A stretch of 64,000 nt of DNA from a virus (lineage: Duplodnaviria > Caudoviricetes). Location: positions 1 to 64,000 of IMG/VR virus record IMGVR_UViG_3300025715_000361, one strand, 5' to 3'. The notes beneath the pieces were generated by a model that worked only from the letters and a program-made list of their open reading frames with translations, was not told where the DNA came from and did not search any database. The position numbers were made by a program, and so were the translations under genes. Shown piece by piece: positions 11,149-26,634 of the stretch. Position 1 is the first letter of the stretch; each line of letters opens with the position of its first letter.

Positions 11149-11493
11149 TTGTACACCTTAAAAGGAGGGAAAGGAATGGAAGTGACGGGTAGCAAAAGAA
11201 TCCCGGAAGGGACGTTAACGATGGTTTTGTCAAGCGGACTTACGTTGGTCGGGGTCACAATGGAAACCGGTGGTGACGAGATTGCGGTATTCAATCCAAG
11301 AATATGGATGTTGCACGACAACAACAAGAAGATGACGCTTTCGTTTATGCCGGGGTATCCTCCGGTGGCTTATGTGCGTCCGTCCGTGTACTGGCCCGTG
11401 CCGGAGTGGGACAGGGCTTTGTATGATCTTTATTTGCAGGCGACAAGCCCTGAAACGGTAGAAAAAGCGAAGATGGGGCCACAGGAAAACTGA
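11149..11493 (+). CDS. hypothetical protein
   Basis: ORF between DUF2829 gene and terminase; likely start at internal ATG (MEVTG) after GGAGGG. Confidence 0.55.
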   Translation: MYTLKGGKGMEVTGSKRIPEGTLTMVLSSGLTLVGVTMETGGDEIAVFNPRIWMLHDNNKKMTLSFMPGYPPVAYVRPSVYWPVPEWDRALYDLYLQATSPETVEKAKMGPQEN

Positions 11494-13769
11494 TGGAAAA
11501 GCCTTATCAAGTCCTGTACGATTACTCAGATGTGCCGACATTGAAGCGGTTCACTCTGGATAACAGCCGTGTCAGGTGTGTCATGGGGCCGTTCGGGTGC
11601 GTGTCAAGCGATACGCTCATTGTCACAGAGAAAGGTCTGCTTCCCATCTCTGAGATAACTCGTCCAATGCGTGTTTTAAGCTGGAATGAGAATAAGGGTC
11701 GATTCCAGCTTTCTCAAAGTGGCGGTGCGTTCCCAAAAGGTAAGGACTATCTATACCGAGTTTCAACGCCGCAAGGATCATTTGACGCAAGCGGACATCA
11801 CCGCGTACTCTGCGCTGATAATAAATATCGACAGGTTTCCAGTTTGCGTTCCGGTGATACCTTGTACGGATGTTTTCCTTCCCTGATACGGAAAACTGTT
11901 TCGGAACCCCGGTTATTGTCGCACGAAGATGATCCCCGTTTTTCTGAAAAAGTCGCAGATTGGATGGGTCGTTATGCAGAGTTAGCCCGTCAATATGGTC
12001 TGTCACTTCTTCAGGAAGAAGATACCGGCCTAACTTTTGCTCAAGTATCAGGCGATGTTCAAATATTGAGCCGTCCAATTTGGCAAAAGGATGTTCAGCA
12101 GTCACGCTCACATACCCGTCTAAATCAATCCTGCGTCCTGAAACAAACTGGTGATTCAATTCGCCGCCCCTTGCGCCCACCGGAAGCCTGTCAAGGTTGT
12201 GCCGTTTCGCAACCTTCCGCACATATCGGGCGGTTACGCCGACAATATTGGCAACGTCTTTTGAACTACGTTTCCCGTCATATAATAAAATTATCAAACT
12301 TGTATTCTCATTCATTTGCTTCCCCCTTAACCGATAGGCCCATAGTATCAATAGAAAGGTTAAGTGTCAAGGAAGAATATTGGGATATGCAGGTTTTGGA
12401 TACGAATAATTATGTGACTGCGGACGGTGCGATACACCACAATTCGGGCAAATCTTCTGCTTGCGTTATGGAGATCATCAGACGGGCAAGTTTGCAGGAG
12501 CCGGGGCCGGACGGAATCCGAAGGTCGAGATGGGCGGTTGTTCGAAACTCATACGGGCAGTTGAAGGACACAACGATACGGACGTTCCACGATTGGTTCC
12601 CGCCGAAGCTTTTTGGAGAGTACCGTGTCACAGACCATATGTTCATCATCACAAGGTTGCCGGGAATCCATCTTGAAATCCTTTTCAGGGCACTTGACAG
12701 GCCGGATCAGGTGTCAAATCTCCTCTCTCTCGAAGTAACATCCGCTTGGTTTAACGAATCAAGGGAAATTCCCAGAACAATCATAGAAGCCATGGACGCA
12801 CGTATCGGTAGGTTCCCATCGAAAAGGGACGGTGGGCCGACTTGGTACGGGATGATTATGGACACAAACCCGCCTGACGAAGATTCATACCTTTATAAGA
12901 TGTTCGAAAAAGTCAAGCCGGACGGCTGGAAGATGTTCAAACAGCCGTCCGGCCTTTCCGCAAGAGCAGAGAACACGAAGCATTTGCCGAAAGGATACTA
13001 TTCGAATCTCGCCAAGGGCAAGGACGAGATGTACAAGAGAATCTATATCCACGGGCAATACGGTTTTCTGGTTACTGGAAAGCCGGTGTTTCAGTCGTTT
13101 GTGGATAATGTACACGTGGCACCGAATATCATTGAGCCGATAAAAGGGCTTGATGTCATTCTGGGATTCGATTTCGGGTTGCAACCGGCATGTGCCATCG
13201 GGCAGATTGATCCGATGGGCAAACTGGTAATTCTTGACGAACTGGTTTCAGATGGAATGGGGTTAAGGCAGTTTTGCGAGAGTCAATTGATACCGCTTTT
13301 GCGTAGGAAGTATTTTGGCATGAGCGTAATGGGGTATGGCGATCCATCCGGAGCATCAAGGGCACCGACAGATGAATCAACTTGCTTTGAAGTGCTTCAT
13401 TCGAGGGAGGTCGGTCTTTCAGGGGTAATTCCCGCACCGACAAACGCCATAATGCCCCGTGTGTCTGCGGTAGAGACGTTTTTAAACAAGATGTGGCAGG
13501 GAGAGCCAGCGTTTTTGCTATCTCCAAACTGTCATTTTTTGCGTAAGGCATTGAATGGTGCGTATCATTACGAGAAGGAGCCGAAGTCGCAGGGAGAGGA
13601 ATACAAGGCGATGCCTGTGAAAAACTTCTATTCCCATGTGTCTGATGCCTTGCAGATGCTTTGCATGTATCTTTCGGAGAAGGAATCACAGGACAGGCGG
13701 TGGAAATCGTTTCAGGCAACGATGAAGAGGCGGGAATACAGGCCAGCAAGCTATGAGGCCGGTTATTAG
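11493..13769 (+). CDS. terL: terminase large subunit with an intein in the Walker A motif
   Basis: MGPFG|...|SGKSS Walker A, RWAVVRNSYGQL, AWFNESRE Walker B, MIMDTNPP, GFDFG and HVSDALQ nuclease motifs; spliced product 476 aa. Confidence 0.92.
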   Translation: MEKPYQVLYDYSDVPTLKRFTLDNSRVRCVMGPFGCVSSDTLIVTEKGLLPISEITRPMRVLSWNENKGRFQLSQSGGAFPKGKDYLYRVSTPQGSFDASGHHRVLCADNKYRQVSSLRSGDTLYGCFPSLIRKTVSEPRLLSHEDDPRFSEKVADWMGRYAELARQYGLSLLQEEDTGLTFAQVSGDVQILSRPIWQKDVQQSRSHTRLNQSCVLKQTGDSIRRPLRPPEACQGCAVSQPSAHIGRLRRQYWQRLLNYVSRHIIKLSNLYSHSFASPLTDRPIVSIERLSVKEEYWDMQVLDTNNYVTADGAIHHNSGKSSACVMEIIRRASLQEPGPDGIRRSRWAVVRNSYGQLKDTTIRTFHDWFPPKLFGEYRVTDHMFIITRLPGIHLEILFRALDRPDQVSNLLSLEVTSAWFNESREIPRTIIEAMDARIGRFPSKRDGGPTWYGMIMDTNPPDEDSYLYKMFEKVKPDGWKMFKQPSGLSARAENTKHLPKGYYSNLAKGKDEMYKRIYIHGQYGFLVTGKPVFQSFVDNVHVAPNIIEPIKGLDVILGFDFGLQPACAIGQIDPMGKLVILDELVSDGMGLRQFCESQLIPLLRRKYFGMSVMGYGDPSGASRAPTDESTCFEVLHSREVGLSGVIPAPTNAIMPRVSAVETFLNKMWQGEPAFLLSPNCHFLRKALNGAYHYEKEPKSQGEEYKAMPVKNFYSHVSDALQMLCMYLSEKESQDRRWKSFQATMKRREYRPASYEAGY
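11623..12315 (-). CDS. HNH endonuclease nested antisense inside the intein (230 aa)
   Basis: N-terminal HTH-like segment, DGYV...HPFA...IFEHRLILEQKLGRYLLPEEVTDHIDGLTLHNDPSNL; AAGGGGGA RBS before ATG 12315. Confidence 0.9.
   Translation of the reverse strand: MNENTSLIILLYDGKRSSKDVANIVGVTARYVRKVAKRHNLDRLPVGARGGELNHQFVSGRRIDLDGYVSVTAEHPFAKLDGSIFEHRLILEQKLGRYLLPEEVTDHIDGLTLHNDPSNLRLFQKNGDHLRATITGVPKQFSVSGKENIRTRYHRNANWKPVDIYYQRRVRGDVRLRQMILAALKLGIDSPYLLGTHRHFEKAGIDPYSHSSLKHALDELSQRWEADLSL
12342..12370 (-). promoter_or_regulatory. sigma70-type promoter for the intein-nested HNH
   Basis: TTGACA (12370-12365)-17 bp-TACTAT (12347-12342). Confidence 0.75.
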
Positions 13770-25626: not shown

Positions 25627-25991
25627 CGGAATTGCTTGAAAAACGACTGAGATTCACTCGCCATTTAACGGATTTAATAGTACACTTCAACCAGAAACCG
25701 GGGGTTGATGTGGCTTACGGGAGAGATTTTGATGAACAATACGAACGAACAAAAGACGGGAAGCCCCTCCGTCACATGCGGGGCAGCCTTCATTATTTGG
25801 GCCTTGCCAATGATGTCGCTTTATATTTGCACGGAAAATACCAAGAGAATACTGAGGCTTATGCTGAAATGGGAGCGTACTGGAAAAGCCTTGATGTCGA
25901 TAACCGCTGGGGAGGAGAATTTCGGGACAAAAAAGGAAACCCTGCTCCAGACGGATGCCACTTCAGTATCGAGTATCAAGGACGCAAATGA
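25623..25991 (+). CDS. endolysin, peptidase M15 family
   Basis: SLHYLGLAND (SxHxxxxAxD), WGG, DGCHFS zinc-binding motifs. Confidence 0.85.
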   Translation: MTELLEKRLRFTRHLTDLIVHFNQKPGVDVAYGRDFDEQYERTKDGKPLRHMRGSLHYLGLANDVALYLHGKYQENTEAYAEMGAYWKSLDVDNRWGGEFRDKKGNPAPDGCHFSIEYQGRK

Positions 25992-26584
25992 GAAGTCCTG
26001 AAATTGTCTTGGACAAGCGTTGGATGCCCGTTTTTTATGTGATCGCTATGACTGTTAAAGACTTGGATATTAGAAGGATGATTATTAAGACGATTTCCGT
26101 CTATGTGATGGCATCTCTCTCCGTCTTTAAGCGGGCGTCCAATGGTAGCTTCGGCAATGATAATATGTTCAAATACATATCCCTTTTTGTCGGCCCTTGG
26201 ATGATTATAAAGAAGAACCTTTTTGTATCCTTTTTTAATAATGTACGGTTTCTGGACATATTTTCCGTAACAAGAGGAAGAACAGAATCTTGGCTTCTTA
26301 CGATTGGTGCGATGATAAGCATAAAAAAGCTCTCCGCAATATTCACATCTATTTTGCAATGGCTTGGGATTATGAGGCTTTTCGCCACGAATTATATGCC
26401 GATAATGCTTGCGACAGTATCCTCTACCGAAGTGAGTGTCTCCACATATAGAGCAGGTCTTTCTTGCTGGGGTAGATTTGCGTTGTTCATTAAAATTTTT
26501 CCCTGTTTGCCATTTCCCGTAACAGGTGGCAGAACAAAATCTCTTGTTGATTGTTTTGGAACCACACACTTCACAAGTATTCAT
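25976..26584 (-). CDS. free-standing HNH homing endonuclease with N-terminal Cys4 zinc fingers (202 aa)
   Basis: CEVC/FCSATC, CSIC, CEYC/FCSSSC; HPRADKKGYVFEH...HHIDGNRLNNHPSN; AAAGGAGG RBS before ATG 26584. Confidence 0.9.
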   Translation of the reverse strand: MNTCEVCGSKTINKRFCSATCYGKWQTGKNFNEQRKSTPARKTCSICGDTHFGRGYCRKHYRHIIRGEKPHNPKPLQNRCEYCGELFYAYHRTNRKKPRFCSSSCYGKYVQKPYIIKKGYKKVLLYNHPRADKKGYVFEHIIIAEATIGRPLKDGERCHHIDGNRLNNHPSNIQVFNSHSDHIKNGHPTLVQDNFRTSHLRP

Positions 26585-26605
26585 AATAACCTCCTTTATG
26601 GAGTG

Positions 26606-26634
26606 AATATAATCATTTAATTTGAAGTTGTCAA
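26606..26634 (-). promoter_or_regulatory. sigma70-type promoter for the free-standing HNH
   Basis: TTGACA (26634-26629)-17 bp-TATATT (26611-26606). Confidence 0.75.

What the first reader, a model, noticed from the sequence alone, without database searches (positions are those of the whole stretch)
11598..12443. Terminase intein whose homing endonuclease is a separate antisense gene with its own promoter inside the intein
Seen: a canonical Cys...HHN/Ser intein splits the terminase Walker A (GPFG|SGKS). Its middle, read on the + strand, has no LAGLIDADG or HNH motif. The minus strand carries a complete 230-aa HNH ORF (12315 to 11623) with an AAGGGGGA RBS and TTGACA-N17-TACTAT (12370-12342). 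The promoter lies in the codons for the intein's C-terminal splicing region. The HNH tail runs antisense through about 240 nt of the N-terminal splicing domain, so most of the element is coded on both strands. Established: intein endonucleases are normally in frame and made only as part of the host precursor. Inference: this layout lets host RNA polymerase express the endonuclease early, independent of late terminase translation, and may also produce antisense RNA against terL. I recall reports of alternate-frame intein endonucleases in actinobacteriophage surveys, so the degree of novelty needs a literature check.
Basis: partly seen in the sequence, partly recalled or inferred. Interest (0 to 1): 0.9.

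Follow-up and report, generated by a model that had tools for sequence, protein, structure and literature searches.

The report
Terminase intein with antisense HNH gene
A phage DNA-packaging gene is interrupted in its ATP-binding loop by a self-splicing intein whose homing nuclease is a separate gene on the opposite strand with conserved promoter-like and ribosome-binding signals of its own. The layout is real, mobile and widespread, but it is an HNH version of a design already described for other nucleases.

Summary
terL (11493-13769, +) carries a 282-aa intein (11598-12443) that splits GPFG|SGKS. An intein-less homologue reads GPFGSGKS uninterrupted. A 230-aa HNH_3 gene lies on the minus strand (12315-11623).

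The layout is a family trait. In all 80 related viral loci, and in three cultured-phage records inspected, both strands are open at the same Walker-A site.

Codon-position analysis separates three zones:
- About 450 nt where only the HNH frame is under protein selection and the intein frame is merely kept stop-free.
- About 240 nt (11626-11865) where both proteins are constrained.
- A region upstream of the HNH start, inside C-terminal splicing-block codons, with TTGAC(A)-N17-TAnnAT and GGAGG conserved at synonymous sites.

Near-identical phages carry no intein, a mini-intein lacking the HNH gene, or a different intein/HNH allele. The breakpoints fall exactly at the intein ends, so the element is mobile.

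Antisense LAGLIDADG and VSR-like intein nucleases are published. I found no report of an antisense HNH. This scan has already met the same family in at least 37 other genomes.

The parts
11493..13769 (+). terL (large terminase) precursor ORF, 758 aa including the intein
   Evidence: ORF list. The C-extein has about 4,400 TerL-like homologues, some with Pfam Terminase_6N/Terminase_3. A portal-like gene follows, as in related phages.
11493..11597 (+). N-extein, ending in Walker-A GPFG
   Evidence: The intein-less homologue P0130 reads ...VMGPFGSGKSSACVMEI... without interruption.
11598..12443 (+). Intein, 282 aa: Cys1 ... HHN, with Ser as the +1 residue
   Evidence: Sequence. 476 aa (intein-less) + 282 = 758 aa. 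AF2 gives a HINT fold with pLDDT above 90 for residues 1-100 and 240-282, and Foldseek matches mini-inteins with TM 0.76-0.88.
11598..11880 (+). N-terminal splicing domain (intein residues 1 to about 95; invariant C1, T10, G13, W29, H68)
   Evidence: Alignment A2 of 37 inteins; AF2 model.
11881..12341 (+). Intein insert with no conserved amino-acid sequence of its own. It is kept stop-free only and is mostly disordered in the model.
   Evidence: A2 shows no conserved columns here apart from the mirror of the HNH motifs. HNH third positions, which are intein second positions, carry 0.3-0.5 bits. A natural in-frame deletion of 11904-12314 exists.
12342..12443 (+). C-terminal splicing region (I-[LVI]-S-[IV]-x-R-x-x-V-K-x-x-Y-W-D-M-Q-V ... 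N-Y-V-T-x-D-G-x-I-H-H-N)
   Evidence: Ungapped alignment of 84 loci; codon table.
11623..12315 (-). HNH homing-endonuclease gene, 230 aa plus stop: N-terminal HTH-like domain, HNH core (EHR...DHIDGLTLHN...N...H), and a C-terminal helical domain found only in this family
   Evidence: Pfam and PHROG matches. 673 homologues. Invariant catalytic columns. Third-position relaxation in the HNH frame.
11626..11865 (.). True dual-coding stretch: HNH residues 151-230 antisense to intein residues about 10-89, both under purifying selection
   Evidence: All three codon positions carry 1.1-1.3 bits. Third positions of conserved four-fold intein codons are nearly fixed: P16 CCC 48/48, V26 GTT 54/55, G60 GGA 56/56, mean 1.07 bits. 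Sites outside the constrained part of HNH carry 0.08-0.16 bits.
12365..12370 (-). -35 hexamer TTGACA, antisense to the Val-Lys codons of the C-terminal splicing block
   Evidence: Val(-26) is GTC in 53 of 60 thinned loci, while other four-fold sites in the same block carry 0.05-0.3 bits.
12342..12347 (-). -10 hexamer TACTAT (family consensus TAnnAT), 17-nt spacer, antisense to the Ile-[Leu/Val/Ile] codons
   Evidence: third position A in 43 of 60. The codon-redraw test is.
12321..12328 (-). Shine-Dalgarno AAGGGGGA (family consensus GGAGG), 5 nt before the ATG at 12315

Best explanation
This is a two-gene, two-strand selfish element in the Walker-A codons of a phage large-terminase gene.

Plus strand. 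The element is translated as part of the TerL precursor. It is a class-1-type intein (Cys1 ... His-Asn, Ser at +1) built as a mini-intein HINT fold with a roughly 150-residue unconstrained loop. The intein excises itself and joins GPFG to SGKS, restoring the ATPase. This step is inferred.

Minus strand. The loop DNA, plus about 240 nt of the N-terminal splicing domain, encodes a free-standing-type HNH endonuclease with its own Shine-Dalgarno. A sigma70-like promoter lies just upstream, written into the codons of the C-terminal splicing region. The nuclease is therefore made as a separate protein, not as part of the precursor.

Mobility. By analogy with other homing endonucleases, the nuclease presumably cuts intein-less terL alleles during co-infection. 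Repair then copies the whole intein/HNH unit into them. This step is also inferred.

What is shown: both frames and the expression signals are conserved by selection, and the unit is present or absent, or swapped, in near-identical phages.

What is inferred: transcription from that promoter, its timing, splicing, and cleavage specificity.
For: Anatomy.

Family-wide conservation:
- All 80 IMG/VR loci, and three cultured-phage records inspected (Pectobacterium phages Pappous and Amona; Pseudoalteromonas phage PHS3), have G|C...HHN|S[GT]K[ST] with the TerL frame open across an intact HNH gene.
- The frame is also open in a GC-rich 303-aa HNH variant.

Selection for an open TerL frame:
- It stays open in only about 0.06% of synonymous-codon permutations of the HNH gene.
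- It is open in 69 of 69 real genes.

Selection on the HNH protein:
- For residues 1-150, positions 1 and 2 carry about 1.0-1.4 bits and position 3 carries 0.3-0.5 bits.
- The catalytic columns are invariant.

Dual constraint in 11626-11865.

Promoter and RBS:
- They sit in a fixed register with a 17-nt spacer.
- Val(-26) is GTC in 53 of 60 loci.
- Codon -36 is NGG, coding R, G or W, so the DNA is conserved rather than the amino acid.
- The mean promoter score is 9.37 of 12. It is 7.75 when codons are redrawn for the same amino acids.
- In 18 of 60 loci at most 1% of redraws reach the real score.

Fold: HINT domain with a low-confidence insert; the best matches are mini-inteins and the insert matched nothing.

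Mobility:
- Intein-bearing alleles are scattered over at least 11 places in the extein tree.
- L099 and L100 are 99.2-100% identical in the aligned terL flanks, and within terL they differ only by exact absence or presence of an 873-nt intein at G|S.
- L093 has exteins 100% and 99.6% identical to the window at the DNA level, but an intein only 50-78% identical that carries its own 237-aa HNH.
- L092 is 97.7% (upstream) and 99.7% (downstream) identical, with an in-frame 411-nt deletion that removes HNH codons 1-137 and leaves a 145-aa mini-intein.
Against: - There are no expression data of any kind.
- In the window alone the promoter scan is no better than shuffled sequence.
- Much of the promoter match (7.75 of 12) follows from the conserved intein amino acids.
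- In the Pectobacterium phages the -35 is poor (8 of 12).
- Pfam Intein_splicing scores below its gathering threshold (26.6 vs 35.8 bits).
- The AF2 model of the HNH core is poor (pLDDT below 50).
- HNH identity tracks extein identity (r = 0.83), and no pair combines a near-identical HNH with a distant extein. Spread therefore seems mostly local.
- L092 and L093 are single metagenome contigs, L093 at low coverage, so assembly artefacts cannot be fully excluded.
Confidence: 0.8

Rival explanations
1. The HNH gene is real and translated, but the promoter-like motif is a by-product of conserved intein amino acids. The gene would then be transcribed from elsewhere, for example by read-through from a distant minus-strand promoter or by a phage-specific promoter.
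For: Codon redraws that keep the intein amino acids already score 7.75 of 12. The window scan is not above chance. The Pectobacterium phage copies have a weak -35.
Against: Synonymous positions are fixed exactly at the promoter bases: GTC in 53 of 60 loci, and A at the third position of the -10 codon in 43 of 60. Neighbouring four-fold sites are free. The nucleotide-level conservation continues through the 5' leader to GGAGG over codons whose amino acids vary. Neighbouring genes run on the + strand, so there is no obvious upstream minus-strand unit.
Confidence: 0.1
2. The HNH protein is a packaging accessory of the terminase, like the HNH proteins next to terminase genes in cos phages such as HK97 gp74 (recalled, not checked here), rather than a homing endonuclease.
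For: It sits inside terL. HNH genes adjacent to terminase genes are common in phages (abstract of PMC3592412).
Against: Near-identical phages lack the whole element (L099 vs L100). Another lacks only the HNH gene (L092). About 80% of the closest TerL relatives are intein-less. The protein therefore cannot be required for packaging.
Confidence: 0.05
3. The HNH ORF is a decaying relic of a past invasion, is no longer expressed, and the intein persists only because precise loss is hard.
For: A deletion variant exists. Homing-cycle theory predicts such decay.
Against: The ORF is intact in all 84 loci analysed. The HNH frame shows a strong purifying-selection signature and invariant catalytic residues. 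There is a recent presence/absence polymorphism and an allele swap in near-identical exteins.
Confidence: 0.03

Closest known systems
Non-canonical actinophage inteins with anti-sense LAGLIDADG or VSR-like homing endonucleases (Gosselin, Arsenault & Gogarten, bioRxiv 10.1101/2025.01.02.630785). The anti-sense LAGLIDADG type was first noted by Gorbalenya 1998 for Synechocystis DnaX, as cited there.
   Same: A contiguous, presumably splicing intein whose nuclease is an ORF on the opposite strand between the splicing blocks. Many are in terL. They are thought to arise when a free-standing nuclease gene invades an intein, and they show signs of continued transfer.
   Different: - The nuclease type here is HNH; that paper lists HNH only in-frame.
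- The hosts are Gram-negative and uncultured phages.
- The ORF runs about 80 codons into the N-terminal splicing domain, whereas that paper says such ORFs typically lie outside it.
- That paper does not discuss promoters or ribosome-binding sites, while here both are conserved.
Fractured genes: split inteins with a free-standing endonuclease gene between the halves (Dassa et al. 2009, PMC2677866)
   Same: A free-standing-type nuclease gene sits inside an intein locus. It fits their model that inteins acquire nucleases by invasion.
   Different: The host frame here is continuous in every locus examined, so this is not a split intein. Their nucleases were GIY-YIG and Vsr-like. The PHS3 GenBank record looks fractured only because of annotation.
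Hidden out-of-frame HNH insertions in phage DNA methylases (ShiLan domain; Arsenault et al. 2025, PMC11855218)
   Same: An HNH gene is nested in a host gene whose frame stays open across it.
   Different: ShiLan is on the same strand, out of frame, and has no splicing domains. Here the HNH is antisense and the host protein is rescued by a bona fide intein.
Cyanobacterial dnaX intein with an out-of-frame LAGLIDADG nuclease (bioRxiv 10.64898/2026.09.14.751524)
   Same: The intein middle is disordered, the overlapping ORF is under purifying selection, and the distribution is sporadic.
   Different: That nuclease is a LAGLIDADG and is described there as a +2 ORF. The host is a cellular gene.
Free-standing HNH homing endonucleases of phages (e.g. 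T4 mobE, PMC2790892; Aeh1 mobE with its own regulatory signals, cited in PMC2677866)
   Same: An independent gene with its own expression signals that spreads together with flanking DNA.
   Different: Those sit between genes or split a gene. This one is packaged inside a protein-splicing element, so the insertion is phenotypically silent.

Membership tests
Intein (HINT-domain protein-splicing element, class 1 type) | In-frame insertion absent from otherwise collinear homologues of the host protein | tested here: met
   P0130 (476 aa) reads GPFGSGKS, and 476 + 282 = 758. L099 and L100 differ by exactly 873 nt at G|S.
Intein (HINT-domain protein-splicing element, class 1 type) | N-terminal Cys/Ser, block-B His, C-terminal His-Asn, and a Ser/Thr/Cys +1 residue | tested here: met
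   C1, H68, H281 and N282 are invariant in 37 aligned inteins, and +1 is Ser in 98% of loci. The block-B Thr is not conserved.
Intein (HINT-domain protein-splicing element, class 1 type) | HINT fold | tested here: met
   AF2 pLDDT is above 90 for residues 1-100 and 240-282. Foldseek gives probability 1.0 to the Ssp/Npu DnaB and Mtu RecA mini-inteins, with target TM 0.76-0.88. This is a prediction only. Pfam Intein_splicing is below its cut-off.
Intein (HINT-domain protein-splicing element, class 1 type) | Protein splicing activity | not testable with these tools
   Indirect only: TerL is assumed to be essential (as argued in the preprint read), and its frame is kept open in every locus.
HNH endonuclease (Pfam HNH_3; PHROG 10730) | Profile match above the curated threshold and conserved beta-beta-alpha-metal residues | tested here: met
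   HNH_3 scores 28.1 bits against a cut-off of 24.8. PHROG 10730 matches with E 1.8e-50 over the full length. H87, D106, H107, H114, N115, N119, N126 and H129 are invariant. The fold is not confirmed because the AF2 core is poor.
Homing endonuclease gene (functional class) | Sporadic presence in closely related host genes, with sequence breakpoints at the element ends | tested here: met
   Extein tree; L099/L100; L093.
Homing endonuclease gene (functional class) | Site-specific cleavage of the empty allele | not testable with these tools
Inteins with an antisense homing-endonuclease ORF (published: LAGLIDADG, VSR-like) | Nuclease ORF on the opposite strand inside a contiguous intein | tested here: met
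Inteins with an antisense homing-endonuclease ORF (published: LAGLIDADG, VSR-like) | Nuclease belongs to one of the described antisense types | tested here: not met
   It is an HNH_3 protein. The preprint lists HNH only as in-frame.
Fractured gene / split intein | Host gene broken into two ORFs around the nuclease gene | tested here: not met
   The frame is continuous in 80 of 80 viral loci and in the three cultured-phage records inspected.

The most novel reading that the evidence does not exclude
The element is an autonomous transcription unit hidden inside an intein. A host-type promoter is encoded in the very codons of the C-terminal splicing block, and it uncouples nuclease synthesis from late terL expression, so cutting can occur while genomes replicate. 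In addition, the nuclease's C-terminal 70 or so residues were born by overprinting the antisense strand of the ancient HINT N-terminal domain. That domain occurs nowhere else among 1.84 billion protein representatives (37 hits; those of about 160 aa or more carry it at or near their C-terminus, and the shortest hits are fragments). It has no structural relatives in the ESM Atlas search.
Probability: 0.4. Interest if true: 0.75.

Novelty: new variant of a known kind. Interest (0 to 1): 0.55.

Why it matters
- It adds HNH to the nuclease types that can ride antisense inside a contiguous intein. The form is abundant in environmental phages: 673 HNH relatives and at least 110 viral-contig matches. 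It is almost absent among cultured phages, where 9 of 50,697 records carry it.
- It gives comparative evidence that such a nuclease has its own conserved promoter and RBS. That addresses the open question, raised in the 2025 papers, of how hidden nucleases are expressed.
- It provides a clean natural example of about 70 codons under purifying selection on both strands. This is useful for studying overlapping-gene evolution.
- It is a practical annotation trap. Gene callers either truncate terL or miss the HNH gene (P0121; the PHS3 and Pectobacterium phage records).
- The natural mini-intein allele suggests, if that single-contig allele is functional, a 145-aa splicing core that tolerates a 137-aa insert. 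That may interest intein engineers.

Tried and rejected
- The AF2 model of the HNH protein from 18 sequences was poor in the catalytic core. I therefore ran no fold search on it.
- A profile search of PDB sequences matched only a designed HTH-like repeat protein, to the N-terminal domain.
- RNAalifold on the 5' leader found no conserved hairpin. Translational control by a leader structure is not supported.
- An ESM Atlas search gave no credible relatives for the C-terminal domain.
- The genome-contig scan found only 4 MAG contigs, so nothing can be said about hosts or prophages.
- Split-intein (fractured gene) reading: rejected because the frame is continuous everywhere.
- Group I intron reading: rejected because the frame is open, the fold is HINT, and the junction is exactly that of protein splicing.
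- Packaging-accessory HNH reading: rejected because near-identical phages lack it.
- No terminator-like site follows the HNH stop on the minus strand before 11213. The 3' end of the putative transcript is unknown.
Full report
**1. What is in the window**

The window belongs to a 75,938-bp IMG/VR virus record that CheckV rates as complete.

The + strand ORF 11493-13769 encodes a 758-aa protein.
- Its first 35 residues end in GPFG.
- Next comes Cys (TGC at 11598), and 282 residues later ...AIHHN ends at 12443, followed by SGKSSAC....
- The C-terminal 441 residues have thousands of large-terminase homologues.
- One homologue, P0130 (476 aa, 88% identical), reads ...VMGPFGSGKSSACVMEI... without interruption.

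The minus strand carries an ORF from ATG 12315 to the stop at 11623-11625.
- It is 230 aa and matches Pfam HNH_3 above the gathering score.
- It matches PHROG 10730 "HNH endonuclease" over its full length.
- AAGGGGGA lies 5 nt upstream of the ATG.
- TTGACA-N17-TACTAT lies at 12370-12342. By itself that scan is no better than shuffled sequence.

**2. The + strand product is a mini-intein with a loop**

Pfam finds only Intein_splicing, below its threshold. An AlphaFold2 model built on 37 aligned inteins gives these confidences:

| Residues | pLDDT |
|---|---|
| 1-100 | above 90 |
| 240-282 | above 90 |
| 146-237 | below 50 |

Foldseek's best matches are mini-inteins (Ssp and Npu DnaB, Mtu RecA splicing domain; target TM 0.76-0.88), with the insert looped out. 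No endonuclease fold was matched.

In the alignment, the N-terminal 92 or so columns and the C-terminal 37 or so columns are conserved. The middle is not.

**3. It is a family, not an accident**

- The HNH protein has 673 relatives at E ≤ 0.001, mostly 232-238 aa, with invariant catalytic columns.
- A scan of IMG/VR gave 110 confirmed matches. In all 80 loci kept, the antisense frame is open across the whole HNH gene and belongs to an ORF, typically 750-850 aa where complete, with G|C...HHN|S[GT]K[ST].
- The same holds in Pectobacterium phages Pappous and Amona and in Pseudoalteromonas phage PHS3.
- The GenBank records for those phages call the precursor "hypothetical protein", or annotate the HNH gene plus a truncated terL.
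- A GC-rich contig carries a 303-aa HNH variant in the same layout.
- Only 9 of 50,697 cultured-phage records have the element.

**4. Which strand is selected where**

- Permuting synonymous codons of each HNH gene leaves the TerL frame open in only about 0.06% of trials. It is open in 69 of 69 real genes. Openness is therefore selected, not a by-product.
- For HNH residues 1-150 (window 12315-11866), positions 1 and 2 of the HNH frame carry about 1.0-1.4 bits and position 3 carries 0.3-0.5 bits. HNH position 3 is intein position 2, so the intein's amino-acid sequence here is free.
- For HNH residues 151-230 (11865-11626), all three positions carry 1.1-1.3 bits.
- In that stretch, third positions of conserved four-fold intein codons are nearly fixed: P16 CCC 48/48, P23 CCA 51/52, V26 GTT 54/55, R54 CGA 48/48, G60 GGA 56/56, A64 GCA 49/49. 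The mean is 1.07 bits.
- By contrast, T6, T10 and G13 lie beyond the constrained part of HNH and carry 0.08-0.16 bits.

About 70 codons are therefore under purifying selection on both strands.

**5. The promoter and leader**

In 60 loci thinned at 90% identity, the last 37 or so intein codons align without gaps. This puts the putative -35 and -10 in a fixed register with a 17-nt spacer.

- The -35 is the antisense of Val-Lys. Val(-26) is GTC in 53 of 60 loci, giving 1.32 bits. Other conserved four-fold codons in the same block (V-17, V-10, T-9, G-6) carry 0.05-0.19 bits.
- The first T of the -10 is the third position of a Leu/Val/Ile codon. It is A in 43 of 60 loci.
- Between the -10 and the start codon, the minus strand reads GGnCCnnTCGGATAnGGAGG.
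- The matching intein codons vary in amino acid. For example, NGG codes for R, G or W. The constraint is therefore on nucleic acid, not on the intein protein.
- Redrawing codons from each locus's own C-extein usage while keeping the amino acids lowers the mean promoter score from 9.37 to 7.75 of 12.
- In 18 of 60 loci at most 1% of redraws reach the real score, where 0.6 loci would be expected.
- No conserved RNA hairpin is present in the leader. The conserved leader bases remain unexplained.

A second HNH gene in the same phage (26584-25979, minus strand) has the same kind of signals: TTGACA-N17-TATATT and AAAGGAGG.

**6. Mobility**

Among the 105 closest full-length TerL relatives, 85 lack the intein, 19 carry it and one has a mini-intein. 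The carriers sit in at least 11 places in the extein tree. Several are strongly supported sisters of intein-less alleles.

Four natural comparisons stand out:

| Locus | Relation to its reference | Difference |
|---|---|---|
| L099 vs L100 | 99.2-100% identical in the aligned terL flanks | Within terL, exact absence or presence of an 873-nt intein at G\|S |
| L093 vs window | N-extein 105/105 nt identical, C-extein 99.6% over 1,718 nt | Intein only 50-78% identical, with its own 237-aa HNH gene; the identity break falls at the intein ends |
| L092 vs window | 97.7% (upstream) and 99.7% (downstream) identical | In-frame 411-nt deletion (11904-12314, 3-nt microhomology) removes HNH codons 1-137 and leaves a 145-aa mini-intein with the promoter still present |
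| L088 (P0130) vs window | 88% identical at the protein level | Empty site |

Together these show most stages of a homing cycle.

One tempering result: HNH identity correlates with extein identity (r = 0.83), and no pair combines a near-identical HNH with a distant extein. Transfer therefore seems mainly between related terminases, as homology-dependent homing would predict.

L092 and L093 are single metagenome contigs.

**7. The C-terminal HNH domain**

- A search of 1.84 billion protein representatives with HNH residues 141-230 found only 37 hits. Hits of about 160 aa or more carry it at or near their C-terminus, and the shortest hits are fragments.
- Other HNH PHROGs and the phage's second HNH align only to the core.
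- The ESM Atlas gives no credible relatives.
- The HINT domain on the other strand is ancient and universal. The restricted distribution therefore fits an origin of this tail by overprinting. This is an inference only.

**8. Comparison with the literature**

- They credit Gorbalenya 1998 for the anti-sense LAGLIDADG type.
- They state that such ORFs typically lie outside the splicing domain. The paper does not mention promoters or ribosome-binding sites.
- Dassa et al. 2009 describe the split-gene version with GIY-YIG and Vsr-like nucleases.
- Six full-text searches found no report of an antisense HNH inside an intein.

The library does not cover subscription journals, so this is absence in what could be searched.

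**9. Earlier notes of this scan**

The same family has been reported by this scan many times: 47 notes in at least 37 genomes. Follow-up agents reached the same classification. I re-derived the core claims independently here.

**10. Verdict**

- The structural interpretation is supported by strong comparative evidence.
- The expression timing and the antisense-RNA ideas are untested.
- This is a new HNH variant of a known kind of non-canonical intein. It is common in uncultured phages and systematically mis-annotated.

Noticed in passing
window 25979-26634 (minus strand); + ORF 25955-26620: There is a second HNH gene: 202 aa, ATG at 26584, 41% identical to the intein HNH over the core. It has TTGACA-N17-TATATT and AAAGGAGG. 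The + strand frame across it is also open, for 221 codons, just after the endolysin-like gene that ends at 25991.
   Followed up: partly
proteins P0240 and P0213 (relatives of window terL): A different, larger intein occupies the same Walker-A G|S site in related terminases. It has an in-frame middle domain and ends ...TGN|SGK[ST]. Two unrelated intein types therefore share this site.
   Followed up: partly
protein P0225 (relative of window terL): This TerL relative has a LAGLIDADG_3-containing intein at another site, after AVVRN. That corresponds to about window 12540.
   Followed up: no
window 12321-12347 (minus strand): The leader bases GGnCCnnTCGGATAnGGAGG are conserved between the -10 box and the start codon across the family. 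Neither the intein amino acids nor an RNA hairpin explains this. It could be an operator, an initial-transcribed-sequence signal or a repressor site.
   Followed up: partly
L098:1059-1970 (+) within the TerL ORF on the minus strand: A GC-rich phage contig has a 303-aa version of the HNH with a duplicated N-terminal HTH-like module. It is still antisense inside an open TerL intein frame.
   Followed up: partly
L099 vs L100, upstream of terL: Besides the intein, these two near-identical contigs differ by presence or absence of a small Tad2-like (PF11195) gene upstream of terL. The window's relatives also carry a Tad2-like gene there.
   Followed up: no
protein P0121 (460 aa, 14 member sequences); GenBank KX912252.1: Gene callers start terL at the Met of the intein's C-terminal block (MQVLDTNNYV...), or annotate the HNH gene plus a truncated terL. 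Public protein sets therefore hold many artefactual terminase fragments from this element.
   Followed up: yes
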